Shown here one piece after another: positions 1 through 21,615 of a DNA stretch of 27,422 bases (the stretch's first letter is position 1; every line of letters begins with the position of its first letter). Both the position numbers and the translations under genes were made by a program. This DNA is from a virus. Where the stretch lies: the IMG/VR virus record IMGVR_UViG_3300035208_007474; one strand, given 5' to 3'. The notes under the pieces are model-generated. The model searched no databases. It was given only the letters and a program-made list of their open reading frames with translations, and was not told the origin of the DNA.

Positions 1-2
1 TT

Positions 3-227
3 ACAATTAAAGATTTGGACAAAGCAAATGCCGATATGCAGGGCGACACCAAAGCTTTGACAATGGCAAAAATTCAGAAACATCATATTGGTGATTTAAC
101 TGTGATTGCCGAAGAAGGTGGAAAACACGCCGATAAAGCTGCTCTGATGTTGTTCTGGTGGCATAATGGAGTTCTTGTGGGCAACCGTGACCTACGGACA
201 ATTTTTGATGAGTTTGATGCACAATAA
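3..227 (+). CDS. 3' end of a gene that runs off the window's left edge (frame open back to position 3, first in-frame start TTG 15); hypothetical protein
   Basis: ORF track 15..227; the frame stays open upstream to the window edge; it is followed directly by an intrinsic terminator. Confidence 0.4.
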   Translation, partial: TIKDLDKANADMQGDTKALTMAKIQKHHIGDLTVIAEEGGKHADKAALMLFWWHNGVLVGNRDLRTIFDEFDAQ

Positions 228-254
228 CAGCGAAGTTGAGTGAGGTCATCGCAT

Positions 255-287
255 AAACGCCAAGGGCAAAACCCTTGGCGTTTTATA
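255..287. terminator. Bidirectional rho-independent terminator (AAACGCCAAGGG-caaaa-CCCTTGGCGTTTT)
   Basis: Perfect 12-bp GC-rich stem with an A-run before and a T-run after; sits between convergent ORFs ending at 227 (+) and 288 (-). Confidence 0.6.
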
Positions 288-581
288 TTAACTTGGTTTT
301 ATATGAATTTTATTTATGTGTTGTAAGAATTCATCGTGGCACATTGAGCCTCGAATGACAGTTGCTTCTAGTAAATCCACGAATTTACTTGGTAGTTTAT
401 AGCGTTCTTTGACGTATGCTTTGGCGTCACGGAGATGGTTGTGGCGGCAAGCCCAAGAAGCAGAAAGTAGTCTATTTTTTAATGATTCATCAATGACACG
501 CATGCAATTTTGGCACGAAGTAATTCCGTTTTCGATTGGTTTGTTTAAGAATTCGCCACAAAAAGGACAAATATCTATCAT
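288..581 (-). CDS. Small zinc-ribbon protein (CPFCG...CQNC)
   Basis: 97 aa; N-terminal MIDICPFCGEF...CQNC four-Cys motif; the start matches the partial ORF at 27377 (M-I-x-x-x-CPFCG). Confidence 0.5.
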   Translation of the reverse strand: MIDICPFCGEFLNKPIENGITSCQNCMRVIDESLKNRLLSASWACRHNHLRDAKAYVKERYKLPSKFVDLLEATVIRGSMCHDEFLQHINKIHIKPS

Positions 582-589
582 TTTTTCCT

Positions 590-1281
590 TTATACTACAT
601 CAATAAAATCATAGTTATTGGCTATGGCCCAATTAGCTATTTGATGAATGTCGTCTAAAATACGTTGTAATGTTTCTTGATTATATCCGTATGCAATGTA
701 AGTGGCTTTTCCTTTTTCTTTAGTAATTGTTGATGGATGGACACCTTTAGAAAAGTCAGTCGAAGCTAGTGTGTTTAATTTTATTAATAAATCATGGATA
801 GGTATTTTGTAAAATCCGTTGTCGCTTTCATGTTGAGAGAGTCCTAGTACGTCACCAAAAATCATTCTTGCGTTGGAGTTTGATAAATTAATATGCGGGG
901 GCATATCAGTTGCCGTACCCATTTCAATATCAATTCTATAGACGGTTCCGCCAAAGGCTTTTGAAATATCTTTTGAGAATTGTCCGTGTTTAGCACCAAA
1001 TTCATCAAGATAGAATTGAATTCCTTTAAGAATATTCGGAATAGCAGAATCAGGTATGCCCTCAGAATAGAAATTAATTGTTCCATTTCGTGAGTTAAAG
1101 TTAGTTGTTCCGTCGATGGTATAACTTCGGGTCGTTTGGCTTGTTTGAATTGGGGAACTCTTCGCAGTTGTCGTTCAATATGAAAAGCTAAGTCCAGTAT
1201 GTTTCGTGGAGGTTCTTCGTAACCTCTGATGGAAACCGTCATTGATTCGTTTAAAGCCATCCATTCACTGAAACTTCGCAT
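590..1281 (-). CDS. Hypothetical protein encoded in two overlapping frames (862..1281 and 590..922, extendable without ATG to ~1174): a frameshifted gene, sequencing indel or pseudogene
   Basis: I translated the downstream frame upstream of its ATG by hand. It stays open from 1174 and reads as a real protein (...YTIDGTTNFNSRNGTINFYSEGIPDSAIPNILKGIQFYLDEFGAKHGQFSKD...), whereas the C-terminal half of the 862..1281 frame is low-complexity L/I/F. The gene diverges from the PNK-like gene. Confidence 0.4.
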
Positions 1282-1298
1282 GTATTATATATGATTAT

Positions 1299-1325
1299 TG
1301 ATTATTGAAAAAATAATTGTATAAT
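1299..1325 (+). promoter_or_regulatory. sigma70-like promoter TTGATT-N15-(TG)TATAAT for the kinase gene
   Basis: TTGATT 1299-1304 and TATAAT 1320-1325 with TG immediately upstream; RBS GAAAGGAAAA before ATG 1345. Confidence 0.4.
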
Positions 1326-1344
1326 GTGTATTTGAAAGGAAAAT

Positions 1345-1815
1345 ATGATTGTCTTATTAGTTGGTTGTATAAGTTCGGGGAAAAGCACTTGGTCTAGGAA
1401 ACGTGCATCTGAAGGTTGGATAACTATTAACGATGATAATATAATAACCTTGTTGCATGGTGGTGATTATACTTTATATAATAAGGCATTAAAACCTTTT
1501 TATAAATCTATTGAATCACACATTCTTCATATGGCAGTAGCAATGGGTCTAAATGTAATAGTTGATAAAGGAGTCAATATTAGCAGGAGAGCCAGAAGTC
1601 GATGGATAGCTCTTGCCAAAAGTTTGGATACACCAATCGAAGCTAGAGTTTTCCCTAAATTTTCCCCCGAAATACATGCCAAAAAAAGATTTGAGTCTGA
1701 CGCTCGTGGTAAGTCATATAAAGATTGGCTAGAAGCTGCTCAAAAGCACGAAAAAGAATATGAAATACCTACTGTGAAAGAAGGATTTACAAGAATAGTC
1801 TCGTCGGACGATTAG
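1345..1815 (+). CDS. Polynucleotide 5'-kinase, kinase domain only (T4 Pnk-like P-loop kinase; no phosphatase domain)
   Basis: LLVGCISSGKSTWSRK matches T4 Pnk LTIGCPGSGKSTWARE; the downstream RRARSRW..ARVF / KKRFESDARGKS blocks are collinear with the T4 Pnk kinase domain. Confidence 0.7.
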   Translation: MIVLLVGCISSGKSTWSRKRASEGWITINDDNIITLLHGGDYTLYNKALKPFYKSIESHILHMAVAMGLNVIVDKGVNISRRARSRWIALAKSLDTPIEARVFPKFSPEIHAKKRFESDARGKSYKDWLEAAQKHEKEYEIPTVKEGFTRIVSSDD

Positions 1816-2735
1816 TATTTATTTTCTTTTAAAAAATGTTGATATGTTTTAGATATACCCTCTTCTAATTCTATCTTATGTTGCCATCCTAGATTATGTA
1901 ATTTTGATAAATCTAATAGTTTTTGAGGCGTTCCGTTTGGTCTAGAGGTATCATATTCTAAGCCGCCAGTGTATCCAACAGTTTTTTTGATTATTTCTGC
2001 AAGCTCTCTTATTGTAACGTCTTTGCCCGTTCCGACATTGATAATATCAGAACTGTTATAAGTATTCATTAAAAATATGGCTGCATCAGCCAAATCATCA
2101 ACATACATAAATTCTCTTTTGGGTTCTCCGTTGCCCCATAAAAGAACAGATGGTTGATTATGAATTTTGGCTTCATGTATTTTTCTGATTAATGCCGGGA
2201 GAACATGAGATTTTTCTAAATCGTAATGGTCATTTTGTCCATAAAGATTTGTAGGCATAAGGCAGATGCCATTAAATCCATATTGCTTTCTATATGCTTG
2301 TATCATTTGAATACCGGCAATTTTAGCGACAGCATAAGACTTATTTGTTTCTTCTAGAGGTCCGGTTAAGAAATATTCCTCTTTAATCGGTTGGGGGCAG
2401 AGACGTGGGTAAATGCAGCTTGACCCCAATAAGAGAATTTTTTTTACATTAGTTTGATAAGCTACGTTTATTACATTTGTTTGTATCATTAAATTATCGT
2501 AAATAAACTCGGCAGGGTAAGTATCGTTAGCCGCAATGCCGCCAACTTTCGCCGCAGCCAAAAATACATAATCGGGTTTTTGATGATTGAAAAACATTTT
2601 AACGGCAGATTCTCTTTTTAAATCAAAACTTGATGTAATGACATCGGTATAACCAGATTTTTTTAGTTGACGGCATATTGAACTTCCAACTAAACCTTGG
2701 CCACCTAAGACCAATATTTTTTCATTTTTGTCCAT
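1812..2735 (-). CDS. fcl: GDP-L-fucose synthase (GDP-4-keto-6-deoxy-D-mannose 3,5-epimerase/4-reductase)
   Basis: 307 aa; N-terminal Rossmann ILVLGGQGLVGSSI, SYAVAKIAG (YxxxK), and Fcl/WcaG/GMER-like conservation along the full length. Confidence 0.9.
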   Translation of the reverse strand: MDKNEKILVLGGQGLVGSSICRQLKKSGYTDVITSSFDLKRESAVKMFFNHQKPDYVFLAAAKVGGIAANDTYPAEFIYDNLMIQTNVINVAYQTNVKKILLLGSSCIYPRLCPQPIKEEYFLTGPLEETNKSYAVAKIAGIQMIQAYRKQYGFNGICLMPTNLYGQNDHYDLEKSHVLPALIRKIHEAKIHNQPSVLLWGNGEPKREFMYVDDLADAAIFLMNTYNSSDIINVGTGKDVTIRELAEIIKKTVGYTGGLEYDTSRPNGTPQKLLDLSKLHNLGWQHKIELEEGISKTYQHFLKENKY

Positions 2736-3729
2736 TTTGTTTGTTGTCCTTTAAAAATTTTTCATCTTTAGCTAACTCAAGGTCATATAGTGTCATATCT
2801 GTTATCAGTTGTTCGAATGTTACCTCTGGTTTCCACCCTAAAATAGTTCTGGCTTTTGTGGAATCTCCTAAAAGAACATCAATTTCGGTAGGTCGATAAT
2901 ATTTGGGGTCTATTATTACGTGGTTTTCCCATTTGAGATTTACGAGTTCAAATGCAATTTTGACAACCTCTTTGATAGAATGTGTTTCTCCTGTGGCAAT
3001 TACGAAATCATCCGGTTGGTTTTGCTGAAGCATAAGCCACATTGCTTTCACATAATCTGTTGCTGCTCCAAAATCTCTTTGAGACTCTAAGTTCCCCAAA
3101 TATACTTTATCTTGTAGTCCACACGCAATTCTAGTTGCCGCTCTTGTTATTTTTCTTATAACAAAAGTTTCTCCACGTCTTCGCCCGCTATGGTTAAAAA
3201 GAATGCCATTTGAAATAAACATATCGTATGCTTCTCTGTAGTTTCTGGCGTACCAGAATGCGGCTAACTTTGAAACACCATAAGGGCTTCTGGGACAAAA
3301 AATCGTGTTTTCATTTTGCGGTGGAGGGGAGTTCCCGAACATTTCGCTAGAAGAAGCTTGATAGACTTTAATTTTTTTGCCCAATATGTTTTGTGCATTT
3401 TTTACGGCTTCGAAAACATTAAATGCCCCTACTCCGGTAACCAATGACGTATAAATTGGAATGTCGAAAGACAATTTGACATGGGATTGTGCGGCTAAGT
3501 TGTAGACTTCATCAGGATTTATTTCAACAATGAGATTTTCTAATGAAGAATAGTCTGAAACATCGCCGTGGTGTAAATTGAGTCTATCGAAGATGTGGTC
3601 TATGCGTCCGGTGTTGAAGGTACTACTTCGTCTAATAATGCCATGAACGGAGTAATCGTTTTCCAACAGCAAATCGGCAAGATGACTTCCGTCCATTCCA
3701 GTTATGCCAGTAATCAATGCTTTTTTCAT
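2722..3729 (-). CDS. gmd: GDP-mannose 4,6-dehydratase
   Basis: 335 aa; ALITGITGMDGSHLADLLL, YGVSKLAAFWYARNYREAY, and Gmd-family conservation throughout; overlaps fcl by 14 nt as an operon. Confidence 0.9.
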   Translation of the reverse strand: MKKALITGITGMDGSHLADLLLENDYSVHGIIRRSSTFNTGRIDHIFDRLNLHHGDVSDYSSLENLIVEINPDEVYNLAAQSHVKLSFDIPIYTSLVTGVGAFNVFEAVKNAQNILGKKIKVYQASSSEMFGNSPPPQNENTIFCPRSPYGVSKLAAFWYARNYREAYDMFISNGILFNHSGRRRGETFVIRKITRAATRIACGLQDKVYLGNLESQRDFGAATDYVKAMWLMLQQNQPDDFVIATGETHSIKEVVKIAFELVNLKWENHVIIDPKYYRPTEIDVLLGDSTKARTILGWKPEVTFEQLITDMTLYDLELAKDEKFLKDNKQNGQK

Positions 3730-3784
3730 ATCTTAATCTAGTTTGTTTTCTTACAAAAACAAATAATCAAAGAGTAAATCTTAA

Positions 3785-3811
3785 TTGAAAACGGTTGGCA
3801 TATGATATAAT
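3785..3811 (+). promoter_or_regulatory. sigma70-like promoter TTGAAA-N15-TGaTATAAT (extended -10) in the divergent gmd / kinase intergenic region
   Basis: The hexamers and TG motif are seen directly at 3785-3790 and 3803-3811. Confidence 0.45.
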
Positions 3812-3817
3812 TGAGGT

Positions 3818-4462
3818 ATGACATCAGTGGCTCAAAATAAGATGGTTATAGGGTTGGTAGGCGGAATAGCCAGTGGTAAAACTATGATAGCGGAGTATCT
3901 TTCTCGTAAAGGTGCCACTATTTTTAATGCCAGCGTAGAAACCAGAAAAGCCTTAAGCAGTAAGGAAATGGTGGAAATGATTTTCGCTCAGTGGCCAGTT
4001 ATAAAAGCCACGGCGGTTATACAGGGTGTTACGGACATAACGATTTTGAAGAAGGAGCTTGCTAAAATTGTCGAATCTGACGACAACGAGCTTGCCTTTT
4101 TAGAAGGTCTTTTGTTCCCGATTGTTCGTAATCGCATGGAGAAGTTCGTTCATGTTATAAAACAAGGTGTGATTGTTATTGACGCCCCCTTGTTGTTCGA
4201 AATCGCTTGTGAAAAATATTGTAATGAGATTTGGTTCATTAACATGCCGTTGAAAGAGCGTTTTGCTCACTATATCAGACGTTTTGTCGGTGATGATATC
4301 GAAATCATACGCAAGGATTTTAAACTGCGTGAAGCTCGTCGTATGTCACTTCTTGAAAAAATGCGACGGTCAACTTTTCAAATCCCCAATAGAACAGGTC
4401 AGCTTTATACGACGTGGAGGACTGTCGATAAATTTTGGAATAGAATAATTACCAAATTGTGA
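3818..4462 (+). CDS. Dephospho-CoA kinase (CoaE) family P-loop kinase
   Basis: VIGLVGGIASGKTM matches CoaE IGLTGGIGSGKST; LLFPIVR / VVIDAPLLFE / RRFV-IRKD blocks are collinear with CoaE. Substrate assignment is uncertain. Confidence 0.55.
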   Translation: MTSVAQNKMVIGLVGGIASGKTMIAEYLSRKGATIFNASVETRKALSSKEMVEMIFAQWPVIKATAVIQGVTDITILKKELAKIVESDDNELAFLEGLLFPIVRNRMEKFVHVIKQGVIVIDAPLLFEIACEKYCNEIWFINMPLKERFAHYIRRFVGDDIEIIRKDFKLREARRMSLLEKMRRSTFQIPNRTGQLYTTWRTVDKFWNRIITKL

Positions 4463-4465
4463 TAT

Positions 4466-4651
4466 TTATTCGATATTATCTTTATCTGACTTGTCTAGTT
4501 CCGAACGTAAAATCAGTACATTTTCGTTAGCTTCGATGCCTAAACGTACTCTATTGTGGCTATCAATTCTGACTACCGTAATACTGATATCGGGATTCCC
4601 CGGTGTTCTTAAGATAATTTTTTCGTCTTTCTTCCTAGATAGAACTAACAT
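4466..4651 (-). CDS. csrA: Carbon storage regulator CsrA/RsmA homolog (RNA-binding translational regulator)
   Basis: 61 aa; MLVLSRK is identical to the Bacillus CsrA N-terminus and the VRLGIEA..NVLILRSEL core matches CsrA beta-strands; RBS AAGGAG 8 nt upstream; it is the only minus-strand gene in a long plus-strand block. Confidence 0.85.
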   Translation of the reverse strand: MLVLSRKKDEKIILRTPGNPDISITVVRIDSHNRVRLGIEANENVLILRSELDKSDKDNIE

Positions 4652-4732
4652 TTTTAAACTCCTTTATTCATTGATTATAATAGAGTTAGAAGTTAACTAG
4701 TTTTTTGATATAGAGAAAATTTATTTTTCTGG

Positions 4733-4762
4733 TTTTACAACAGACATTGGTTACGTATACTT
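4733..4762 (+). promoter_or_regulatory. sigma70-like promoter TTTACAAC-N-TATACT upstream of the AT-hook gene
   Basis: Member of the recurring TTTACA(AC) -35 family in this window. Confidence 0.4.
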
Positions 4763-4859
4763 TAAGGTGGAAAAGAACCCGGCTATTGTTAGTGGCCCGA
4801 TAGCTAGTAAAAAATAGGTTGAAAATAGGTCGCAGTCAAAAAGTAGAAGGAGTCTGAAC

Positions 4860-5528
4860 ATGAGTAAAGTAACTAATCATCCCCAAGTACTTGTGGCTTT
4901 TGAGGAACAGGCGCAGAAAGCTGTTCAAGAGGCACAGCTTGCTGAAGCCAAAGCAATTCTTTTCCGTTATCGTGCCAGTCTGTGCGAACAAGCTCAGGCA
5001 GTTAGGTCCGACACGGAAAAGATTATGTCCGAAATGACAGCCAAGCGTGAGGACATCGAGAAGCAGATTGTCGATATCGACAACAAAATTGTTGAAGTTG
5101 ACAAAGGTCAGATTCCTGCTAATATGCCAGAATTGACCGTTGCCGCCATGCCAAAACGTGGTCGTCCAGTCGGCGTAAAGGCCAAAAAGGCTGGTCGTCC
5201 TGCAAAGGCCAAAAAGGCTGGTCGTCCTGCAAAGGCCAAAAAGGCTGGTCGTCCTGCGAAAGTAAAGGCGACAAAGCGTGGCCGTCCGCTCCATACTTCC
5301 AGAGCGCATAATGAGCTTCCGTTGCGTCAGGTCGTTACCAACGTCCTGAAGGGAGCCAAGAATGGCCTGAACTTGACCGAATTGGTCGAAGCTATCGTCA
5401 AAACCGGCTATAAGTCGAAGACGAAAGACGATTTCGCAAAAATCGTCTATCAGGCGGTTTACAAGCTCTGCAAAGAAAAAACGGCGACCAAAGAGGCTGC
5501 AACCAAGAAGTATCGTCTCGTCGCTTAA
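4860..5528 (+). CDS. AT-hook / histone H1-H5-like DNA-binding protein (N-terminal coiled coil, 5 GRP AT-hooks, C-terminal linker-histone-like winged helix)
   Basis: KRGRPVGVKAKKAGRPAKAKKAGRPAKAKKAGRPAKVKATKRGRP; the C-terminal LTELVEAIVKTGYKSK...KKYRLV resembles the H1 globular domain. Confidence 0.75.
   Translation: MSKVTNHPQVLVAFEEQAQKAVQEAQLAEAKAILFRYRASLCEQAQAVRSDTEKIMSEMTAKREDIEKQIVDIDNKIVEVDKGQIPANMPELTVAAMPKRGRPVGVKAKKAGRPAKAKKAGRPAKAKKAGRPAKVKATKRGRPLHTSRAHNELPLRQVVTNVLKGAKNGLNLTELVEAIVKTGYKSKTKDDFAKIVYQAVYKLCKEKTATKEAATKKYRLVA
5181..5261 (+). repeat. 3 x 27-nt near-perfect tandem repeat (gccaaaaaggctggtcgtcctgcaaag) encoding AKKAGRPAK x3 inside the AT-hook gene
   Basis: Direct reading of the sequence; the third copy has a single substitution. 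Confidence 0.9.
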
Positions 5529-5819: not shown

Positions 5820-5843
5820 GGGTAAAAGAAGGAGTGAGTGTTT

Positions 5844-7115
5844 ATGGCAAAGACAACCGAAGCAACTAAAGACAAAGACGTATGTAATTTTTGTGGTAAG
5901 TCGTGGCAGAAAGCAGGCGTAGGGCAGCTTGTGGAAAGTAAAATTGCCAAGAAAAAAGGACTTCCCAATGTGCGTATTTGTGCCAATTGCATAGCGATGG
6001 CAAATAACCTGTTGCAAGCCGAGCGACAGCAACGTGTAAAAACAGACAGCGATAGAGTTCTTAAAGCTCTTCCGTCTCCAAAGAAAATCGTGGACCATCT
6101 AGACCAGTATGTAATAGGGCAAGATGCGGCCAAGCGTAGTCTGGCTATTGCTGTTGTTAATCATTACAAACGATTAGTGGCAGAAACAAGCGAACAAGAT
6201 TCAGATGTACAATTGGAAAAATCCAATATTCTTATGATTGGTCCCACAGGTTGTGGCAAGACCCTTTTGATTCAAACATTGGCTAAAATGCTTGAGGTTC
6301 CATTAGCCATTGGTGACGCCACATCTTTGACAGAAGCCGGATATGTTGGAGATGATGTTGAAAATTTGCTTTTGCGATTGATTCAAGCCGCAGATAACAA
6401 TATTGAATTAGCACAGCGTGGAATTATTTACATTGACGAAATTGATAAAAAACGAAAAACTGGTGGTAATGTTTCTATCACAAGGGACGTGAGTGGCGAG
6501 GGTGTGCAGCAAGCTTTGCTTAAGATTATCGAAGGTACTACCGCTAATGTGCCGCCTCAAGGCGGTCGAAAGCATCCTGAGCAAGTATGTATCCCATTTG
6601 ATACTCGTCATACACTGGTAATTTGTGGTGGTACGTTTGTCGGTTTGGAAGATATAATTATCAATCGTATCGGGCGATGTGGTTTTGGTTTCGGTGTAAA
6701 ACCGACAGAATCCACTGAAACCCAAGATAATATTTTGGCTCGGGTAACTCCACAAGACCTCGTTGAATTTGGTATGATTCCCGAATTTATTGGGCGACTT
6801 CCCGTAATCACTCATGTGACATCATTGGACGAAGATGCGTTGTGTAGTATTTTAACTGAACCCAAAAATGCTTTAATTCGTCAATATCAGAAACTATTTG
6901 ATATGGATGGAGTAAAATTAGTGGTCGAAGATAATGCGCTAAAGGCAATTGTCAAAGCCGCTAAAATAAAAGGAACTGGTGCAAGGGCAATGCGTGGTAT
7001 TCTGGAAGAAGTAATTTCTCCCGCCATGTTTGATTTACGTTCGATGGCCGGTAAAACCTACACTCTCACAGAAACCATTGTTCAACAAATTCTTGAAAAT
7101 AATAAGGCAGCATAA
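5844..7115 (+). CDS. clpX: ATP-dependent Clp protease ATP-binding subunit ClpX (N-terminal C4 zinc-binding domain + AAA+)
   Basis: CNFCGK...CANC zinc finger; Walker A GPTGCGKT; Walker [10 protein letters not shown]; ClpX-family conservation along the full length; I chose the ATG at 5844 over the GTG at 5838. Confidence 0.9.
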
Positions 7116-8828: not shown

Positions 8829-9401
8829 TTGAAAATTGATTTAGGTAAATTATTAGTAAGCCAAGAGGAATTAAGAGATGTGCAACAAGTCGTTGGCATG
8901 GTTCGTCATGTCTATAATCATGGTTTATGGACACAAGAAGTGCTAGACAAGTTTTCTCCTGATGGGTCTAATAAATTAATCGCTGTTACTCGTTTTCCAG
9001 ATGATAAGTTGCTTTTGCACGATGGACACCATAGATTATTTGCCACTTTATTAGCTGGTCGAAGGGTCTTGATGCCGGAAGAATATGTGTTAACAGACAG
9101 GCAATATGCGGATTACTTGGAAATAAACTTTAAGACTGGTTGGCTAACTCCGTTTTGTCCGATGAAAGAGATTAGAATTGCCGATTTTATCAATTTTAAG
9201 AGAGAAGCCGCAGCCATCGTCGCAATAAATGAAGAGCGAGCTAAGAGTTTTATCGTGGCAAATAGACAAAGATATGTTCGACTTCGAACACTGCATACGT
9301 TGGAAGATTTAGTAAAACGATATGAAAATGAACTCAAGAGACAAGATATATGGCAATTGTCTGATGCTTGCGCCCAACGGCAAGCCAATGTGCCGGTGTG
9401 A
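8829..9401 (+). CDS. ParB/sulfiredoxin-like nuclease-domain protein
   Basis: LLLHDGHHRLFA (ParB N-terminal DGxHR motif); TTG start 6 nt after AGGAG. Confidence 0.55.
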   Translation: MKIDLGKLLVSQEELRDVQQVVGMVRHVYNHGLWTQEVLDKFSPDGSNKLIAVTRFPDDKLLLHDGHHRLFATLLAGRRVLMPEEYVLTDRQYADYLEINFKTGWLTPFCPMKEIRIADFINFKREAAAIVAINEERAKSFIVANRQRYVRLRTLHTLEDLVKRYENELKRQDIWQLSDACAQRQANVPV

Positions 9402-10074
9402 TGACAAAAAAGTTAATTGGTATCTGTCTAGGAATTTGGCAAAAGTTGTTGCTGAGAATCCGCCAATAATTCAATTAACCTTTGTTCCAAAAGGTGAAGG
9501 GCACGAAGACTTATATTATCTTCTCAAAAAGAATAATGTTTGTGCCGTTTGTGGTGGTTCCAAAGAGTTGACAAGACATCATTTAGTACCACACGAATAT
9601 CGCAGGCACTTCCCAGATTATATTAAAAAACATAATTCATATGATATTTTATTATTGTGTGTTGACTGTCATGTGAAATATGAAGAAACAGCAGTTCAGT
9701 TTAAAAAGCAAATAGCAGAAGAGATGGGGATTCAATTTCACAATCCAAGGAATCTCAATAAACGGTTAGTTGTTGCCAAGCGCATCGCCAATACATTGTT
9801 AACTCATGGTGATGCGATACCGCAGTCTAAAAAAGATATTTTATTGGCAAGAATTTCGGAAAGTTTGGACAAAAAAAATGTGGATTTTGCGGAGTTGTCT
9901 GCGATAGCTGCTCTTGAATTAGAGCTACCGCCGCCAACGAAGAATCAAGCTCAACAAGTTGTCGAGCAGTTACCCGATTTGTTTACGTTTGTTGTGCGGT
10001 GGCGGGAACATTTTGTCGAAACGATGAGTCCGAAATTTTTACCGGCGTATTGGGAAACCGATAAGTCATTATAA
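9322..10074 (+). CDS. HNH-motif protein (CxxCGG..HHLVP..N..LLLCxxCH); start uncertain (9322, 9364 or 9388)
   Basis: CAVCGGSKELTRHHLVPHE...HNSYDILLLCVDCHVKYE matches the HNH beta-beta-alpha-metal consensus; with the 9322 start it overlaps the upstream gene by 80 nt. Confidence 0.5.
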   Translation: MKMNSRDKIYGNCLMLAPNGKPMCRCDDKKVNWYLSRNLAKVVAENPPIIQLTFVPKGEGHEDLYYLLKKNNVCAVCGGSKELTRHHLVPHEYRRHFPDYIKKHNSYDILLLCVDCHVKYEETAVQFKKQIAEEMGIQFHNPRNLNKRLVVAKRIANTLLTHGDAIPQSKKDILLARISESLDKKNVDFAELSAIAALELELPPPTKNQAQQVVEQLPDLFTFVVRWREHFVETMSPKFLPAYWETDKSL

Positions 10075-10117: not shown

Positions 10118-10786
10118 ATGAGTAATTTTAAACGATATGTCGAAGAAGGAAGAGAATGGCGTGGGAAATATCCCAAGACATATCATTTCAGTTTTTCGCC
10201 AAATCTTCAAAATGATGACAGGATGTTAGAAGATGACAATATCCTTGTTGGAAAGAATGTCGTTGTAAGCGAAAAATTAGACGGCGAAGGAACCGGGATG
10301 ACCAGAATTGTATGTCACGCTCGTTCTTTGGATTCTAGGGACCATCCTTCCAGACATTGGGTGAAAGCGTTGCATGCTTCTGTTAAACAAAACATACCTG
10401 AAGGTTGGCATTTTTTTGGGGAAAATTTATTTGCCGCCCATTCGATTCGATACGATAAATTGCCGACATATTTCTTTTTGTTTATGATTGTTAATGATAA
10501 ACAAATGTGTTTGTCGTGGCAGGATACAAAAGAGTGGGCAGAATTGCTCGGACTACAAACCGTACCTGTTCTTTATGAAGGCCCATGGGATATTGAAAAA
10601 GTACAAGCTTGTTACACAGGTCAATGCCCTTGGGGAGAAGCCCAAGAGGGATATGTGGTTCGCAATGCGGCAATGTTTCCGATTAAAGATTTTTCACTTA
10701 ATATGGGGAAATGTGTGCGATACAACCATGTTCAGACAGGTGATTTTTGGATGAAAAATTGGGTTCAGAATAAATTGTCCAAATAA
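10118..10786 (+). CDS. ATP-dependent RNA ligase, Rnl2-like nucleotidyltransferase domain
   Basis: Motif I VSEKLDGEGTGM (KxDG), motif III FFGENLFA, motif IIIa YFFLFMIV, motif IV EGYVVRN and motif V GKCVRY, collinear with the T4 Rnl2 N-terminal domain; strong RBS AAGGAGG. Confidence 0.65.
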   Translation: MSNFKRYVEEGREWRGKYPKTYHFSFSPNLQNDDRMLEDDNILVGKNVVVSEKLDGEGTGMTRIVCHARSLDSRDHPSRHWVKALHASVKQNIPEGWHFFGENLFAAHSIRYDKLPTYFFLFMIVNDKQMCLSWQDTKEWAELLGLQTVPVLYEGPWDIEKVQACYTGQCPWGEAQEGYVVRNAAMFPIKDFSLNMGKCVRYNHVQTGDFWMKNWVQNKLSK

Positions 10787-10983: not shown

Positions 10984-11892
10984 ATGACGGCACGATTTAT
11001 AATGACAAGGATGAAATTGAATATACGAAATAATATGCCTAGTTTTTTTAGATATCCGGGTGGAAAATCTAAATTAAGAATTCAAATCACAAATGCTTTG
11101 AATAAATGGTCTTCGGATACCACAGAGTATAGGGAGCCATTCTTTGGTGGTGGGTGCATTGGAATAGAGTTTCTAAAGTGTAATCCAAACATTAAAGATA
11201 TTTGGATTAACGATAAAGACGATGGTATCTCTTGCTTATGGACATCAGTGATAAATTATCCAGAGTTGCTAAAGGATTTGGTTCATAATTTCAAACCGTC
11301 TGTTGAAAAGTTCGATGAATTTAAAAGTAAGCTTATTGCGGCACCAATTCTAAAGTCAGACGAGGAAGTTGTGCAATATGGTTTTATGAAATTAGCCATT
11401 CATCAAATATCATATTCTGGATTGGGAACAAAATCTGGTGGTCCTTTAGGTGGTAGAGAACAAAAGTCTAAATATCTTATTGATTGTCGATGGTCGGTTG
11501 ATTACATATGCAAAAAAATAGATTTATTGCATGATATGTTTTCAAAATTATCTGTCAAGGATAAAAAGTGTTCTTGTTTAGATTTTGCCGATGTCATTGC
11601 CGACGCTGGAAGTGCCGTTATATATCTTGACCCGCCATATTATGTAAAAGGAAATGACTTGTATCAAGTCGGCTTCACTCAAGAAGACCATTCTCGCCTT
11701 GCTGACTTATTAAAAAAAACCCATTTGTGGGTTTTGTCTTATGACGACTGTGACGAAATTAGAGAATTATATAAGTGGGCACATATAAAAGAAATTCATG
11801 AAGTGAATTACAGTATCACCGCATTAAAAGATAAGCAAACGGGCAATAGATTGTCTCGTGCTAAAACAGAATTATTGATTACACCATTTTAA
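10984..11892 (+). CDS. dam: Dam-family (D12 class) N6-adenine DNA methyltransferase; the true start may be the internal ATG at 11014 or 11035
   Basis: FFRYPGGKSKL (Dam FLKWAGGKxxL), EPFFGGG (motif I), DPPY (motif IV); overall T4 Dam / DpnIIA / EcoDam architecture. Confidence 0.8.
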   Translation: MTARFIMTRMKLNIRNNMPSFFRYPGGKSKLRIQITNALNKWSSDTTEYREPFFGGGCIGIEFLKCNPNIKDIWINDKDDGISCLWTSVINYPELLKDLVHNFKPSVEKFDEFKSKLIAAPILKSDEEVVQYGFMKLAIHQISYSGLGTKSGGPLGGREQKSKYLIDCRWSVDYICKKIDLLHDMFSKLSVKDKKCSCLDFADVIADAGSAVIYLDPPYYVKGNDLYQVGFTQEDHSRLADLLKKTHLWVLSYDDCDEIRELYKWAHIKEIHEVNYSITALKDKQTGNRLSRAKTELLITPF

Positions 11893-13789: not shown

Positions 13790-13879
13790 AATTTGCTAGG
13801 CGGGACTAGAATGCTGTTTCCCAATAATTAAATTGTACATGGGGAAGATGTGGATGAAAAATTTCCGAAAGGTGATAAA

Positions 13880-14464
13880 ATGAGTAAATTACAAGATGAC
13901 ATAGTTCAAACATTTAATCAAGGAATGAGTATCGTAGAAACAGCAGAAAAATATGGAATGTCTTATGAAGTTATTTATTGCATAATCACTAAGGCTATCG
14001 GTAATGCGGCAGTTAAAGAACGAAAACGGGATAGAAATAGGTCGGTCATACAAGATTTTACTGACGGTATGAGTCGTTCTAGTTTATGCGATAAATATGA
14101 TTTGTGTTGGGTTACTATTTCTAATATTCTTAAGGCTACTATGAGTAAATGGTCCATCAAAAGGAATGAATTATTAAATCGCAATTTACAAATCATGCAA
14201 GATTACCAACATATTAGTAGACAAGAATTAATGAACAAATATAACTTAAGTTGGACTAGACTTCATGAAATTATCAGTAAAGCAGGGGGAACGGTTAAAC
14301 ATAAACAATATTCATTGCAGTTGTCCTTAAATCTTGGTTTTAAAATTTTGAAAAAGTTATTGTTGAATAAAGATAGTCAATCTATTAGCGAAGAATTAGG
14401 TTGTTCTGTTCAATACGTAAGCTGTATTAGAAAATTGGGACGGGAAAATGGGCTGATAAGTTAA
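13880..14464 (+). CDS. DNA-binding protein with four tandem ~45-aa helix-turn-helix repeats
   Basis: Repeats IVQTFNQGMSIVETAEKYGMSYEVIY / VIQDFTDGMSRSSLCDKYDLCWVTISNI / QIMQDYQHISRQELMNKYNLSWTRLHEI / KLLLNKDSQSISEELGCSVQYVSCI; RBS AAGGTG 8 nt before ATG 13880. Confidence 0.55.
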   Translation: MSKLQDDIVQTFNQGMSIVETAEKYGMSYEVIYCIITKAIGNAAVKERKRDRNRSVIQDFTDGMSRSSLCDKYDLCWVTISNILKATMSKWSIKRNELLNRNLQIMQDYQHISRQELMNKYNLSWTRLHEIISKAGGTVKHKQYSLQLSLNLGFKILKKLLLNKDSQSISEELGCSVQYVSCIRKLGRENGLIS

Positions 14465-14512: not shown

Positions 14513-14546
14513 GCCTTTGTAACGATTGTTATTTAAGAGAATAGAC

Positions 14547-16142
14547 ATGGGTATTAAACTTGAAAAAAACACGTTTCCAGTAAGCCATGGGGCAGAAGAT
14601 TTCCAGTGTTTCGGTCCTCCTGCCACAAAAGATGGCGTATTTGAAGGGACCATGATTGCTGATTGTGGTTGCTTTACTCAGGATGGGAAAGATTCGAATA
14701 AATATTATCACAGTGCGGTTGTTCAGTCTAAATGTAATCAAAAATGGTACGTTTATTTTGAGTGGGGACGAGTAGGGGCAAATCATCCATCATTTCAATT
14801 TACTGATTGTTCAAATAAGTCTGATGCCGAACATGATTATTGTGACCAGCTTCATCAGAAAAATGATAAGCGTGGCGAATGGATTCAACATCCATCTTTG
14901 GGTAAAATTCTTCGAGCGAAAACAGGAAAAGATTGTTATTTGGTAAGGCCGCAGGCCAAAAGAAGTACCGGCCTTCCAGATGCTAGAACCATTGTTCACA
15001 ATGAAGGTGTTTCTGTTGTTAAAACATCCAAGCCAACTGGCAAGGTTTCGACGGTCAATGTAGACAAAGCCACACTTGAGTTAATGCGGGATTTGAATGT
15101 TGGTACAGTTAATTATACCAGAGCTTCTATGGCTGACGCCGCAATTCCAACTCAAGTAGCTTTGGATGAAGCTCGTTCTATTTTGATTGCAGCACAACAA
15201 CGTGTTTCCAATGTGGGTGATGATGTCGAAGACCAAATCAAAGATACGGAATTGAGGCATTTAACGGCACTGATGTATGGCCGAATTCCTAAGAAGAAAG
15301 ACCGCAACGCCTCACCGGATAAATGGATTCTATCAGCGTCTAATATTGGTACGTGGAACCTAGACATTGATGCATTTGAGTCGGCTTTAAAAACTGCCGA
15401 TATGGGACAAGACCAAGCAGACCCATTTGATGGCATGCGACTTCAGATGCGGCATTTGTCTAAAAAAGGTAACCCAATTGGTGAATTTATTCATGGTTGG
15501 GCACCGAGTGCAACACGTAATATGCATAATTATTTGAAGGAAAAATTGCAAATAATTAATGTATGGGAGATTGAACGTGAAGGTGATGCGGCAAAGATAG
15601 CTAGAGTTCAAGCTGCAATTGCTGCACAAAATTGGAAACCGTCAGAAAGACCGCTGCATCAACCTGCTCGGTCGGACCTTTCTAGAAACATTGCTAAGAT
15701 TTATGCCAGAACTAACACATGTTTACTTTTTCACGGCACACGTACTGTAAATGTGTCGGGTCTGCTGCGTGAATCTTGGCGATTACGTAATAATCTGGTT
15801 GGGGTGCAACTTACCGCTGCTATGTTCGGTCCGGGTGTTTATTGGGCTGATGATTGGAAAAAGAGCGCAGGTTATACCAGCATGTCCGGTGCATATTGGA
15901 CAAAGGGCGGCGGTGGTATTGGTGGTCGTGGTGCATTTATGTTTATAGCTGATGTTGTGCTTGGTGCATCTTATCTTGCCCCAAGAGCAGAAGGTTTTAC
16001 GAAACCACCAAATGGTTATCATTCGGTTTTCGGCAAGGCCAATTTTACAAAGGGTAGTTATGGCGAAATTGCCAATAACGAATTTATTACTTATAACAGC
16101 GACCAGTGTGTGGCCAGATATTTAGTAGAATTCGCTAGGTAA
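14547..16142 (+). CDS. Poly/mono(ADP-ribose) polymerase (PARP) homolog: N-terminal WGR domain, helical region, C-terminal PARP catalytic domain with an H-Y-E triad
   Basis: WYVYFEWGRVG (WGR signature); catalytic LLFHGTRTVNVSGLL (H-G-T), GPGVYWADDWKKSAGY (Tyr), NEFITYNSDQ..YLVEF (Glu, as in PARP1 YNEYIVY); I set the start at ATG 14547 downstream of the promoter. Confidence 0.8.
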   Translation: MGIKLEKNTFPVSHGAEDFQCFGPPATKDGVFEGTMIADCGCFTQDGKDSNKYYHSAVVQSKCNQKWYVYFEWGRVGANHPSFQFTDCSNKSDAEHDYCDQLHQKNDKRGEWIQHPSLGKILRAKTGKDCYLVRPQAKRSTGLPDARTIVHNEGVSVVKTSKPTGKVSTVNVDKATLELMRDLNVGTVNYTRASMADAAIPTQVALDEARSILIAAQQRVSNVGDDVEDQIKDTELRHLTALMYGRIPKKKDRNASPDKWILSASNIGTWNLDIDAFESALKTADMGQDQADPFDGMRLQMRHLSKKGNPIGEFIHGWAPSATRNMHNYLKEKLQIINVWEIEREGDAAKIARVQAAIAAQNWKPSERPLHQPARSDLSRNIAKIYARTNTCLLFHGTRTVNVSGLLRESWRLRNNLVGVQLTAAMFGPGVYWADDWKKSAGYTSMSGAYWTKGGGGIGGRGAFMFIADVVLGASYLAPRAEGFTKPPNGYHSVFGKANFTKGSYGEIANNEFITYNSDQCVARYLVEFAR

Positions 16143-16192
16143 TATAACAACGTCTCTAATAATGATGTACGTAAAAGTAGTGAAGATTTTGC

Positions 16193-16220
16193 TTTACAAC
16201 AACAAGTTTAAAAGTATAAT
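16193..16220 (+). promoter_or_regulatory. sigma70-like promoter TTTACA-N16-TATAAT
   Basis: Hexamers read directly; preceded by an ATGTACGTAAAAGTAGTGAAG element related to the TGTACA motif family. Confidence 0.5.
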
Positions 16221-16268
16221 AGTGATAATGAATTTTTCAAACAGCGTTGTTAGCGGAAAGGAAAATAT

Positions 16269-16523
16269 ATGAGTCATTTTTATGGTACATTGAACGGCAA
16301 TCGTGGCGAGGCAACTCGTTGTGGGTCTAAAGATAGTGGCATGACAACGTATTGTGCTTCGTGGAGCGGAGCGGTGCATTGTCAAGCGCATTATAATGAA
16401 AAGACTGATGAAGATTGGGTTTTAGTTGAGCTTGTACCTTGGCATGGTCATGGTACAAATAAAGTTTTATACGATGGCCCAATTAGCGGGGCCGAAGATG
16501 CTCTGAAAAGACAAGCGTCTTAA
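16269..16523 (+). CDS. Hypothetical protein (84 aa)
   Basis: RBS AAAGGAAAA; higher GC than its neighbours. Confidence 0.5.
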   Translation: MSHFYGTLNGNRGEATRCGSKDSGMTTYCASWSGAVHCQAHYNEKTDEDWVLVELVPWHGHGTNKVLYDGPISGAEDALKRQAS

Positions 16524-16539
16524 TAAAGAAAGGGATATT

Positions 16540-17196
16540 ATGTGCAACATTGGTTCCGAAATAGCAGCAATTATTCGTCAAGTAATTACGGAGAAGGTAG
16601 ATTCCGATATAATGTTTACTGCCTTCGATGTGAGTAGAGAAGTGCAGATTCGACTTCAAGCCGCTGGCCTTTCATTTGTGCGGCATTCGAACATGAAAGA
16701 AGTTGTTCATGAAGAAATGCAGGGGTATATGCAGCAAGGCGTATATCAGCGGCAATTAGTCGATGTTGGTGCGCCGGTCCAAGCATTTGTGTATTATCCC
16801 GCTGGCGCAGACCCCCTTCAATATGTGTCAGGAAATATAGTACATATAAGTGCGCCTGCCATTGTGCCCGTGCCCGCCGTAACGGATTCAACCGATGATG
16901 GGAACCAAGGTCGCTCACCAGATGCAAGAGGAACGCTGGCTGTTCCGGCTGTGCTTGTTCGTGCCGCTGGTATGATGCCGGGCGACAAGTGTTACGTGTA
17001 TGCAGACACCGACAAAACCGGAACTCCATTTTTGATTATTACTGGCATGGCAACAGGCAAAAGTCTCGCTGAATATACCGTGGATGCGTACAACAACGTT
17101 CGCATTACACAAAAGCAATTAGACGCTGGCGGATTGACAGAAGATAGTTTTTATTTTGAAAGTGATGGGTCGTCGGTGATTGTCAAGGCTCTTTAA
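16540..17196 (+). CDS. Hypothetical protein; C-terminal region resembles an AbrB/MazE-type swapped-hairpin segment (RGTLAVPAVLVRAAGMMPGDK)
   Basis: RBS AAGGGA; GC-rich, which explains the long antisense ORFs across it. Confidence 0.45.
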   Translation: MCNIGSEIAAIIRQVITEKVDSDIMFTAFDVSREVQIRLQAAGLSFVRHSNMKEVVHEEMQGYMQQGVYQRQLVDVGAPVQAFVYYPAGADPLQYVSGNIVHISAPAIVPVPAVTDSTDDGNQGRSPDARGTLAVPAVLVRAAGMMPGDKCYVYADTDKTGTPFLIITGMATGKSLAEYTVDAYNNVRITQKQLDAGGLTEDSFYFESDGSSVIVKAL

Positions 17197-17235
17197 GGGT
17201 AAGGACGCCTTTCTAAAACTTGACTGCAACTAATG

Positions 17236-17268
17236 GCCCGCACGGATGCAGCGGGCTGTTAGTTTTTT
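17236..17268 (+). terminator. Probable intrinsic terminator (GCCCGC-acggatgca-GCGGGC, tgttag, T6)
   Basis: GC stem followed by an interrupted T tract, 40 nt after the stop at 17196. Confidence 0.5.
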
Positions 17269-17351
17269 AAGGTAGAGATGAGATTATGGCACAGCACAGG
17301 TAGTAGTGATTCGAAATGACTTTTGTAGCATGGCAATGGAAGAAAAGAAAA

Positions 17352-18053: not shown

Positions 18054-18111
18054 TTGCAATTTATTAAAAATTTGTTAAAATCGCAGTCCTATATCGAAGG
18101 GACTGCCTTAT

Positions 18112-19319: not shown

Positions 19320-19367
19320 GTGGGGGAAACTAGTTTACAGGTCATCTCAAAAGGATATAATCTTGAT

Positions 19368-21604: not shown

Positions 21605-21615
21605 TGTAATTCATA

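What the first reader, a model, noticed from the sequence alone, without database searches (positions are those of the whole stretch)
1812..3729. GDP-L-fucose biosynthesis pair (gmd-fcl) carried as auxiliary genes
Full-length, apparently intact Gmd and Fcl overlap by 14 nt on the minus strand. In a phage or mobile element they could divert host GDP-mannose to GDP-fucose or another 6-deoxyhexose. That could glycosylate virion proteins, remodel host surface polysaccharide (superinfection exclusion or receptor masking) or supply a DNA-modification pathway. No glycosyltransferase is present in this window, so the acceptor step must lie elsewhere.
Basis: established knowledge. Interest (0 to 1): 0.5.

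Follow-up and report, generated by a model that had tools for sequence, protein, structure and literature searches.

The report
GDP-fucose gene pair in huge phage
Two intact genes that turn GDP-mannose into GDP-L-fucose sit as add-on cargo inside a fragment of a very large bacteriophage genome; this kind of viral sugar-nucleotide cargo is already well known, so the finding is real but ordinary.

Summary
Window 2722-3729(-) encodes a full-length GDP-mannose 4,6-dehydratase (Gmd). Window 1812-2735(-) encodes a full-length GDP-L-fucose synthase (Fcl). The genes overlap by 14 nt, and all catalytic residues are present.

The "host-flank artefact" that would refute the finding is rejected. Overlapping metagenome contigs extend the window to about 39 kb. 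That stretch is collinear, gene by gene, with LR756511 (595 kb, deposited as uncultured phage) and with metagenome contigs of 572 kb and 634 kb. The backbone order is GT2, ligase-like, ParB-like, kinase, [variable slot], ClpX, PARP, ADP-ribosylglycohydrolase.

gmd-fcl lies in the variable slot between the kinase and ClpX. The relatives carry other cargo there and have no gmd or fcl in the stretches examined. Composition of the pair matches the rest of the element.

Gmd-like sequences occur in 255 GenBank phage records and 83 IMG/VR contigs, and adjacent gmd-fcl pairs are annotated in cyanophages. This is therefore a new member of a known kind.

The acceptor step is unresolved. The only glycosyltransferase found, a GT2 6.2 kb from fcl and outside the window, shows no fucosyltransferase signature. 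Whether fucose ends up on virion proteins or on host envelope glycans cannot be decided from sequence.

The parts
2722..3729 (-). gmd: GDP-mannose 4,6-dehydratase, 335 aa. First gene of the two-gene unit.
   Evidence: TIGR01472 462.6 bits (cut-off 415); PF16363 E 1e-124. PDB 1n7g E 2e-120. Motifs GITGMDG 8-14, RR 33-34, S127/E129, Y150/K154.
1812..2735 (-). fcl: GDP-L-fucose synthase (GDP-4-keto-6-deoxymannose 3,5-epimerase/4-reductase), 307 aa.
   Evidence: NF047922 460.7 bits, E 2.5e-138, below the cut-off of 500. PDB 1bsv E 1e-99. S105/C107/Y134/K138/H177 align with E. coli S107/C109/Y136/K140/H179.
2722..2735 (-). 14-nt overlap. The fcl ATG lies inside the last codons of gmd, and an AAGGA motif lies upstream of it. 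Translational coupling is inferred.
   Evidence: Sequence read directly; upstream motifs. Cyanophage S-SRM01 has the same arrangement, with an 11-nt overlap.
3730..3817 (.). 88-nt divergent intergenic region between gmd(-) and the CoaE-like gene(+). This is the only room for a promoter for the pair.
   Evidence: Sequence. The sigma-70 consensus scan of 1000-5000 found 16 sites against 13.5 +/- 3.7 expected, and none lies in this spacer, so no promoter is shown.
1345..1815 (+). AAA_33 / polynucleotide-kinase-like kinase. Left anchor of the variable slot. Convergent with fcl; the two coordinate ranges share 4 nt.
   Evidence: PF13671 E 5e-14; phrog_505. 50% identical homolog at the collinear position in LR756511.
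3818..4462 (+). Dephospho-CoA-kinase-like gene. It shares the variable slot with gmd-fcl.
   Evidence: PF01121 E 1.4e-23; TIGR00152 72.1 bits against cut-off 65.55. No homolog found in the collinear stretches of LR756511 or the 572-kb contig.
4860..5528 (+). Lys/Ala-rich histone-H1-like protein with three KKAGRPAK repeats and a weak C-terminal HARE-HTH match. It lies within the slot.
   Evidence: PF05066 E 0.0027, weak; repeats. Weak homolog in the 572-kb contig. Similar-looking proteins in the LR756511 slot, judged by eye.
5838..7115 (+). ClpX. Right anchor of the variable slot.
   Evidence: NF003745 549 bits against cut-off 359. 50% and 52% identical homologs at collinear positions in LR756511 and the 572-kb contig.

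Best explanation
The pair is a lineage-specific auxiliary cargo module of a huge, megaphage-type bacteriophage. Only about 39 kb of that genome is in hand.

Shown by sequence: Gmd and Fcl are intact, and they lie in a variable slot between a conserved kinase and ClpX in a backbone shared with phage-scale genomes of 572-634 kb.

Inferred from the enzyme families: Gmd, an SDR enzyme with bound NADP+, dehydrates host GDP-D-mannose to GDP-4-keto-6-deoxy-D-mannose. Fcl epimerises C3 and C5 (Cys107/His177 as acid/base) and reduces C4 with NADPH (Ser105/Tyr134/Lys138), giving GDP-beta-L-fucose.

Inferred from the sequence: the 14-nt overlap couples translation of the two genes, so the labile keto intermediate is made and consumed in step.

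Inferred, not shown: the GDP-fucose is handed to a fucosyltransferase encoded elsewhere, in the unseen >90% of the phage genome or by the host. For the acceptor I slightly favour phage-made glycans on virion proteins such as the collagen-like fibres (about 0.4). Remodelling of host envelope polysaccharide comes next (about 0.35), and DNA is unlikely (<0.05).
For: Identity.

Extension of the window:
- L001 overlaps window 1-4174 at 99.93%.
- L092, an independent ENA assembly, spans L090, L001 and window 1-1295 in one contig.

Phage character of the extended stretch:
- HNH endonuclease, phrog_374, E 5e-43.
- Lysozyme domain of the kind found in baseplate-hub proteins, phrog_196, E 3e-41.
- Three collagen-repeat, tail-fibre-like proteins and a phage nucleotidyltransferase, phrog_388, E 6e-32.

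Relatives in the phage collection:
- The MVP-like protein matches only LR756500, LR756501 and LR756503.
- Among twelve concatenated proteins of unknown function, the best-scoring matches were all to the 250-aa protein, in LR756511, LR756504 and LR756502.

Collinearity:
- Ten genes with LR756511 at 29-53% identity.
- Nine with the 572-kb contig.
- Six with the 634-kb contig.
- None of these stretches has gmd or fcl.
- The LR756511 slot holds other cargo, and the 572-kb slot holds a second GT2.

Composition:
- GC3 is 0.33 and 0.26, within the element's range of 0.255-0.495.
- Trinucleotide correlation with the rest of the window is 0.957, against 0.936 +/- 0.043 for other segments of the same length.

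The best non-self Gmd is only 63% identical among 5.8 billion proteins.

Precedent:
- Annotated gmd-fcl pairs in S-SRM01, S-SCSM1 (PMC9602691) and DSL-LC03 (PMC10611076).
- The PBCV-1 enzymes were shown to be active (PMC5408694).

For a virion acceptor (weak):
- Collagen-like fibre genes lie 3-7 kb from the conserved GT2.
- A GT_PLOD gene lies about 4.7 kb from the GT2 homolog in the 634-kb contig.
- The nearest solved folds to the GT2 are polypeptide O-glycosyltransferases.
Against: - No capsid, portal or terminase gene lies in the 39 kb, so 'phage' rests on tail-fibre-like and lysozyme genes and on collinearity with genomes that their depositors call phage.
- Fcl scores below NCBIfam's strict equivalog cut-off (460.7 against 500).
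- No fucosyltransferase family (GT10, GT11, GT23, NodZ-type) and no manB/manC was found in the 39 kb.
- The GT2 most resembles UDP-HexNAc-using GT-A enzymes (TM about 0.6, 16-22% identity), so it is not evidence for fucose transfer.
- No promoter or expression evidence.
- The split between virion and envelope acceptors rests on weak context only.
Confidence: 0.8

Rival explanations
1. Host-envelope remodelling. The phage-made GDP-fucose is used by host or phage transferases to alter LPS O-antigen, capsule or EPS during a long infection. This would block superinfection or stop progeny from adsorbing to debris.
For: - This is the usual reading of the same gene pair in cyanophages, where it sits among fucosyltransferases and cell-wall genes.
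- gmd-fcl lies among metabolic and host-takeover genes (CoaE-like, ClpX, thioredoxin) rather than in a structural module.
Against: - No Wzx/Wzy, polyprenyl-phosphate transferase or other lipid-carrier step was seen in the 39 kb or in the neighbourhoods of the relatives' GT2 genes.
- No experiment has shown this role for any phage gmd-fcl in the papers read.
Confidence: 0.35
2. Host-flank or assembly artefact. gmd-fcl belongs to a bacterial chromosome next to a prophage, or was joined to phage DNA by mis-assembly.
For: - gmd and fcl are typical bacterial polysaccharide genes, and the nearest homologs (63%) are cellular.
- The pair is on the opposite strand to its neighbours.
Against: - Backbone genes conserved in 572-634-kb phage-scale genomes lie on both sides: kinase, ParB-like and ligase-like to the left; ClpX, PARP and ADP-ribosylglycohydrolase to the right.
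- Contigs from two other assemblies (JGI, ENA) cover gmd, fcl and the fcl-kinase junction at >=99.9% identity; neither reaches more than halfway into the CoaE-like gene.
- Composition is indistinguishable from the rest of the window.
- No integrase, tRNA or att-like feature was found.
- No close cellular homolog exists (<=63%).
Confidence: 0.03
3. The carrier is not a virus. It is another giant extrachromosomal element or a reduced symbiont genome, and gmd-fcl serves that entity's own surface glycans.
For: - No capsid, portal or terminase gene lies in the 39 kb.
- Cell-like genes are present: full ClpX, thioredoxin, CoaE-like, MVP-like, PARP.
- The 572-kb and 634-kb contigs are unclassified metagenome contigs.
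Against: - The collinear LR756511, and LR756500-504, are deposited as phage genomes. LR756501-504 are treated as megaphages in the literature.
- PHROG matches to tail fibre, baseplate-hub lysozyme, HNH endonuclease and late activator.
- No tRNA gene and no ribosomal or other housekeeping protein among the ORFs scanned.
Confidence: 0.07
4. A different product. The second enzyme, or a bifunctional Gmd, yields another GDP-6-deoxyhexose (GDP-D-rhamnose, GDP-6-deoxy-talose, or a colitose-type sugar) rather than, or as well as, GDP-L-fucose.
For: - Fcl scores below the equivalog cut-off.
- PBCV-1 GMD is bifunctional and also makes GDP-D-rhamnose (PMC5408694).
- The 735-kb megaphage LR756501 pairs its Gmd with an aminotransferase and an N-formyltransferase, so megaphages do use other branches.
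Against: - The epimerase acid/base pair Cys and His and the S-Y-K triad of GMER are all conserved.
- All solved relatives are GDP-fucose synthases, down to E 1e-99.
- No ColD-type or Per-type aminotransferase or dehydratase lies nearby.
Confidence: 0.07
5. DNA modification. Fucose is transferred to modified bases of the phage genome to evade restriction.
For: - Phage glycosyltransferases are known to hypermodify DNA with diverse glycans (cited in PMC12619734).
- A Dam-type methylase is nearby.
Against: - No hydroxymethylase or other base-modification gene was found in the 39 kb.
- To my own knowledge, no fucosylated DNA has been described.
- The GT2 resembles protein- and teichoic-acid-directed GT-A enzymes.
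Confidence: 0.03

Closest known systems
gmd-fcl pair of T4-like cyanophages (Synechococcus phage S-SRM01, MW015081; S-SCSM1 ORF121/122; DSL-LC03 ORF208/209)
   Same: Phage-borne, same gene order gmd then fcl, same strand, and overlapping reading frames (11 nt in S-SRM01, 14 nt here). Both are annotated as auxiliary metabolic genes.
   Different: Gmd is only about 54% identical. The cyanophage pair sits inside a cluster with NodZ-type and alpha-1,2-fucosyltransferases, an NDP-sugar synthase and GT2s. Here it stands alone in a variable slot of an unrelated huge-phage backbone, with no recognised fucosyltransferase in 39 kb.
Chlorovirus PBCV-1 GMD (A118R) and GMER (A295L)
   Same: A virus encodes both steps of GDP-L-fucose synthesis. 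The recombinant enzymes are active, and the virus decorates its own capsid protein with glycans that contain fucose (PMC5408694).
   Different: It is a eukaryotic giant virus, the two genes are not adjacent, and its GMD is bifunctional (it also makes GDP-D-rhamnose). No activity data exist for the present pair.
E. coli colanic-acid gmd-fcl (wcaG); solved structures 1db3 and 1bsv
   Same: Same two enzymes, and all catalytic residues are conserved. By my own knowledge, the two genes are also adjacent and in the same order in that cluster.
   Different: By my own knowledge, the E. coli genes lie in a chromosomal polysaccharide cluster with manB/manC, transferases and export genes. Here the pair is isolated cargo in a phage backbone. 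The Gmd here is shorter (335 aa) and lacks 7-8 residues in the loop after the RR motif.
Gmd module of the 735-kb megaphage LR756501/LR756503
   Same: A huge phage carries a Gmd 54.5% identical to this one. The same phages share the MVP-like protein with this window.
   Different: There is no Fcl next to that Gmd. Its neighbours are a DegT-type aminotransferase, a sugar N-formyltransferase and methyltransferases, which points to a perosamine-type branch. Its genomic position is different.
Huge-phage backbone of LR756511 (595 kb) and the 572-kb and 634-kb metagenome contigs
   Same: Collinear GT2, CPD-like, ligase-like, ParB-like, kinase, ClpX, GGACT, 250-aa protein, PARP and ADP-ribosylglycohydrolase genes at 24-56% identity.
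   Different: None has gmd or fcl in the collinear stretch. The kinase-ClpX slot holds FolD-like and PRPP-synthetase-like genes in LR756511 (judged by eye) and a second GT2 in the 572-kb contig.

Membership tests
GDP-mannose 4,6-dehydratase (TIGR01472, EC 4.2.1.47) | Whole-protein score above the curated equivalog cut-off, full-length match | tested here: met
   462.6 bits against 415; model positions 1-341 of 342.
GDP-mannose 4,6-dehydratase (TIGR01472, EC 4.2.1.47) | Rossmann GxxGxxG motif, RR loop, and catalytic Ser/Thr-Glu and Tyr-xxx-Lys (E. coli T133, E135, Y157, K161; own knowledge of the family) | tested here: met
   G8/G11/G14, R33-R34, S127/E129, Y150/K154. Ser replaces Thr, as in the solved MUR1 enzyme.
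GDP-mannose 4,6-dehydratase (TIGR01472, EC 4.2.1.47) | Catalytic activity on GDP-mannose | not testable with these tools
   Needs a recombinant enzyme assay.
GDP-L-fucose synthase (NF047922, EC 1.1.1.271) | Whole-protein score above the curated equivalog cut-off | tested here: not met
   460.7 bits against 500, although E is 2.5e-138 and the match is full length. The next best family scores only 86 bits.
GDP-L-fucose synthase (NF047922, EC 1.1.1.271) | Reductase triad Ser107-Tyr136-Lys140 plus epimerisation pair Cys109/His179 (E. coli numbering; own knowledge of the family) | tested here: met
   S105, Y134, K138, C107 and H177 align residue for residue with 1bsv.
GDP-L-fucose synthase (NF047922, EC 1.1.1.271) | Closest characterised relatives are GDP-fucose synthases; gene adjacent to gmd | tested here: met
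   All 17 PDB sequences with E <= 1e-40 are GDP-L-fucose synthases. 14-nt overlap with gmd.
Phage auxiliary metabolic gene (cargo inside a phage genome) | Flanked on both sides by genes of the element's conserved backbone | tested here: met
   Kinase, ParB-like and ligase-like on one side; ClpX, PARP and ADP-ribosylglycohydrolase on the other. All are collinear with LR756511 and the 572-kb contig.
Phage auxiliary metabolic gene (cargo inside a phage genome) | Virion hallmark genes (capsid, portal, terminase) on the same molecule | tested here: inconclusive
   Only tail-fibre-like collagen proteins and a baseplate-hub-type lysozyme domain are present. No capsid, portal or terminase gene lies in the 39 kb available.
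Phage auxiliary metabolic gene (cargo inside a phage genome) | Composition like the rest of the element | tested here: met
   GC and GC3 within range. Trinucleotide r 0.957 against 0.936 +/- 0.043.
Complete viral fucosylation system (nucleotide-sugar synthesis plus fucosyltransferase, as in S-SRM01 or PBCV-1) | A recognisable fucosyltransferase (GT10, GT11, GT23, NodZ or similar) in the same genome | tested here: not met
   None among the ORFs of the 39 kb scanned with Pfam. The one GT2 resembles ppGalNAc-T and TarP-type GT-A folds. More than 90% of the presumed genome is unseen, so absence is not shown.

The most novel reading that the evidence does not exclude
This huge-phage lineage may run its own glycosylation system, analogous to that of giant eukaryotic viruses. 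A conserved glycan island centred on the GT2 would decorate collagen-like fibres or other virion proteins. In relatives the island is joined by GT34, GT_PLOD and RGP-type transferases, methyltransferases and sulfotransferases. Individual phages would then plug different sugar-nucleotide cassettes into variable slots to vary the glycan: gmd-fcl here, and Gmd with an aminotransferase and a formyltransferase in the 735-kb phage.
Probability: 0.2. Interest if true: 0.55.

Novelty: new member of a known kind. Interest (0 to 1): 0.22.

Why it matters
The pair adds one more case, in a previously unsampled huge-phage lineage, to the many phages and giant viruses that carry GDP-fucose synthesis genes.

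The useful points are contextual:
- The pair occupies a swappable cargo slot in a backbone shared by genomes of 572-634 kb.
- A related megaphage uses the same first enzyme for a different sugar branch.

If the fucose were shown to end up on virions, it would extend virus-encoded glycosylation from giant eukaryotic viruses and mycobacteriophages to megaphages. The gene pair by itself would not surprise a specialist.

Tried and rejected
- Megablast of 25 kb of the window against 50,697 phage records gave no match. An exact 30-mer in IMG/VR gave no match.
- No tRNA or tmRNA.
- Extension to the right failed. The only contigs carrying the 155-aa protein are 1.8-2.7 kb and lie within the window.
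I worked around this through its identical database copy, P0121.
- The 80 IMG/VR loci with Gmd share no other window protein except two thioredoxin hits, so none is a relative of this element.
- Promoter and terminator scans are not above shuffled expectation. No transcription unit could be defined beyond gene arrangement.
- GT2 as the fucosyltransferase: the sequence matches are weak (Dpm1, E 4e-4; MftF-type). The confident model (pLDDT 92.8) resembles UDP-HexNAc-using polypeptide GalNAc-transferases and TarP at TM about 0.6. That is generic GT-A similarity and not evidence for GDP-fucose use.
- Host flank or prophage boundary: rejected.
- DNA glycosylation: no supporting gene.
- Host phylum from Gmd homologs: the top hits are spread over Firmicutes, Deinococcota, Rhodothermota and an archaeon at 58-63% identity, which is uninformative.
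Full report
**Observation**

One runs 2722-3729 (335 aa) and the other 1812-2735 (307 aa). They share 14 nt.

The upstream protein is a GDP-mannose 4,6-dehydratase (Gmd):
- TIGR01472 scores 462.6 bits against a curated cut-off of 415, matched end to end.
- PF16363 gives E 1e-124.
- The best solved relative is Arabidopsis MUR1, E 2e-120.

The downstream protein is a GDP-L-fucose synthase (Fcl):
- NF047922 scores 460.7 bits, E 2.5e-138, full length.
- This falls short of that model's strict cut-off of 500, but the next family scores only 86 bits.
- All 17 solved relatives listed are GDP-L-fucose synthases, led by E. coli GMER at E 1e-99.

The residues that define the chemistry are all present. 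Their roles come from my own knowledge of the E. coli structures.
- In Gmd: the GxxGxxG motif (8-14), the RR loop (33-34), S127/E129 and Y150/K154.
- In Fcl: S105, Y134 and K138 (reduction), and C107 and H177 (C3/C5 epimerisation).

The fcl start codon lies inside the last codons of gmd, preceded by AAGGA. This fits translational coupling.

**Is the carrier a phage, or are these host genes?**

The window is an entire 27,422-nt contig. Three further contigs extend or confirm it:
- JGI contig L001 overlaps window 1-4174 at 99.93% and continues 6.3 kb past the left end.
- JGI contig L090 adds another 5.2 kb.
- ENA contig L092, assembled independently, spans L090, L001 and window 1-1295 in one piece. 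This confirms a stretch of about 39 kb.

The added DNA carries several phage-type genes:
- A phage-type HNH endonuclease (phrog_374, E 5e-43).
- A lysozyme domain typical of baseplate-hub proteins (phrog_196, E 3e-41).
- A GT2 glycosyltransferase.
- Three collagen-repeat, tail-fibre-like proteins.
- A phage nucleotidyltransferase (phrog_388, E 6e-32).

No close DNA relative exists in the phage collection or in IMG/VR. At protein level, however, the relatives in the phage collection are all huge phages:
- The 846-aa MVP-like protein matches only LR756500 (462 kb) and LR756501/LR756503 (735 kb).
- In a search with twelve concatenated proteins of unknown function, the best-scoring matches were all to the 250-aa protein 9322-10074. 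They lay in LR756511, LR756504 and LR756502 (595-642 kb).
- LR756501-504 are treated as megaphages in PMC9723777.
- The 735-kb genome is that of Al-Shayeb et al. (PMC7162821).

The decisive result is collinearity.
- A 43-kb stretch of LR756511 carries ten homologs in the same order at 29-53% identity. They are ligase-like, ParB-like, the 97-aa zinc-finger protein, the AAA_33 kinase, ClpX, GGACT, the 250-aa protein, WGR-PARP, the 218-aa protein and ADP-ribosylglycohydrolase.
- A 572-kb JGI contig shares nine genes in the same order.
- A 634-kb ENA contig shares six.

None of these stretches contains gmd or fcl. The interval between the kinase and ClpX differs in each genome:
- In LR756511 it holds what look by eye like FolD, PRPP synthetase, H1-like proteins, a glyoxalase-like protein and a site-2-protease-like protein.
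- In the 572-kb contig it holds a second GT2.
- Here it holds fcl-gmd, a dephospho-CoA-kinase-like gene and an H1-like gene.

gmd-fcl is therefore lineage-specific cargo in a variable slot of a huge-phage backbone. Composition agrees with this:
- GC3 of the two genes (0.33 and 0.26) lies within the element's range.
- Trinucleotide usage of the pair correlates with the rest of the window at r = 0.957. Other segments of equal length average 0.936 +/- 0.043.
- The nearest Gmd among 5.8 billion proteins is only 63% identical. There is no sign of recent capture from a sampled host.

One caveat remains: no capsid, portal or terminase gene is in the 39 kb available.

**Mechanism**

[quoted passage not shown] Fcl then epimerises C3 and C5 and reduces C4 with NADPH, giving GDP-beta-L-fucose. 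The substrate must come from the host or from unseen phage genes, because no manB or manC was found.

The pair points against its neighbours. It diverges from the CoaE-like gene across an 88-nt spacer. It converges on the kinase gene, and the two coordinate ranges share 4 nt. No promoter or terminator stands out above chance.

The acceptor step is not identified. No glycosyltransferase lies in the window. The GT2 lies 6.2 kb from fcl, outside the window. In relatives it sits beside other transferases (GT34, GT_PLOD, RGP), methyltransferases and sulfotransferases.

Its confident model (pLDDT 92.8) most resembles polypeptide GalNAc-transferases and the phage-derived TarP (TM about 0.6, 16-22% identity). 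That is generic GT-A similarity and gives no evidence for GDP-fucose use.

I slightly favour virion-protein glycosylation (about 0.4), for three reasons:
- Collagen-like fibre genes lie 3-7 kb from the GT2.
- A collagen-type GT_PLOD lies about 4.7 kb from the GT2 homolog in a relative.
- The experimentally supported viral precedents concern virions: PBCV-1, and mycobacteriophages as cited.

Host-envelope remodelling is close behind (about 0.35). It is the customary reading for cyanophages. DNA modification has no support.

**Comparison with what is known**

- Gmd-like sequences occur in 255 GenBank phage records and in at least 83 IMG/VR contigs.
- Of the 80 IMG/VR loci kept, 21 also have an Fcl-like gene, and 16 of those are adjacent on the same strand.
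- Synechococcus phage S-SRM01 has gmd and fcl overlapping by 11 nt inside a cluster with NodZ-type and alpha-1,2-fucosyltransferases.
- S-SCSM1 and DSL-LC03 are described likewise.
- Chlorovirus PBCV-1 encodes both enzymes, with demonstrated activity.
- The 735-kb megaphage LR756501 has a Gmd (54.5% identical) paired instead with a DegT-type aminotransferase, a sugar N-formyltransferase and methyltransferases. That is a perosamine-type branch.

The present pair is thus a new member of a known kind. Its only distinctive aspects are the carrier lineage and the slot it occupies.

**Verdict**

Novelty is low, and interest is about 0.2. The more unusual content of this window lies elsewhere and is listed under things noticed in passing: the WGR-PARP, NUDIX and ADP-ribosylglycohydrolase cluster, the MVP-like protein, and the set of RNA-repair-type genes.

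Noticed in passing
window 14526-16142, 18305-18922, 19320-20360, 23342-25882: Four genes lie in one 11-kb stretch: a WGR-domain PARP, a NudE-like NUDIX hydrolase, an ADP-ribosylglycohydrolase and an 846-aa major-vault-protein-like protein (MVP shoulder and Vault_3 domains). PARP and ARH are conserved in LR756511 (53% and 38%). In the phage collection the MVP-like protein matches only the huge phages LR756500, LR756501 and LR756503. In LR756500 a PARP-like gene lies about 6 kb from it and an RNA ligase about 2 kb from it. The MVP-PARP pairing echoes the eukaryotic vault (MVP plus vPARP).
   Followed up: partly
window 1345-1815, 10118-10786; L001 5199-5837, 6929-7348; L092 5093-5803: A scattered set of RNA-repair-type genes: a Pnk-like AAA_33 kinase, an RNA ligase (PF09414), a ligase-like nucleotidyltransferase, a weak 2H/CPD-like phosphoesterase and a weak RlaP-like nucleotidyltransferase. 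Most are conserved in the 572-634-kb relatives.
   Followed up: partly
window 5838-7115: A full-length ClpX (NF003745, 549 bits against cut-off 359) with no ClpP next to it. It is conserved at 50-52% identity in LR756511 and the 572-kb contig.
   Followed up: partly
window 4860-5528: A Lys/Ala-rich histone-H1-like protein with three tandem KKAGRPAK repeats (aa 109-134) and a weak C-terminal HARE-HTH match. Similar-looking proteins lie in the same slot of LR756511.
   Followed up: no
window 590-1281: Two overlapping ORFs (139 aa and 110 aa) correspond to a single 230-aa ORF in the overlapping contigs L001 and L092. They differ by one indel, which is either an assembly error or a strain-level frameshift in the window.
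   Followed up: partly
L086 (LR756501) 15712-21901: The Gmd of the 735-kb megaphage is flanked by a DegT-type aminotransferase, a sugar N-formyltransferase and two Methyltransf_24 genes. This suggests a GDP-(N-formyl)perosamine-type pathway in that phage.
   Followed up: partly
L092 179-3294 (left of the window): Three consecutive collagen-repeat proteins (418, 311 and 299 aa). The 311- and 299-aa proteins, rich in G-x-S repeats, match phage tail-fibre families; the 418-aa protein matches Pfam Collagen. A 248-aa SLT/lysozyme-domain protein follows. Its N-terminal part is encoded over a tandem DNA repeat that broke the JGI assembly.
   Followed up: partly
L001 8574-9880; L095, L097 and L098 around position 10000: The GT2 and the small gene overlapping its start form a conserved pair in metagenome contigs of up to 634 kb. 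They sit beside varying sets of GT34, GT_PLOD and RGP transferases, methyltransferases, sulfotransferases and a radical-SAM enzyme. This looks like a glycan-building island of huge phages.
   Followed up: partly
window 10984-11892, 13850-14464: A Dam-type N6-adenine DNA methyltransferase, and a protein with a Mor / late-activator-like HTH that appears to be duplicated within the protein.
   Followed up: no
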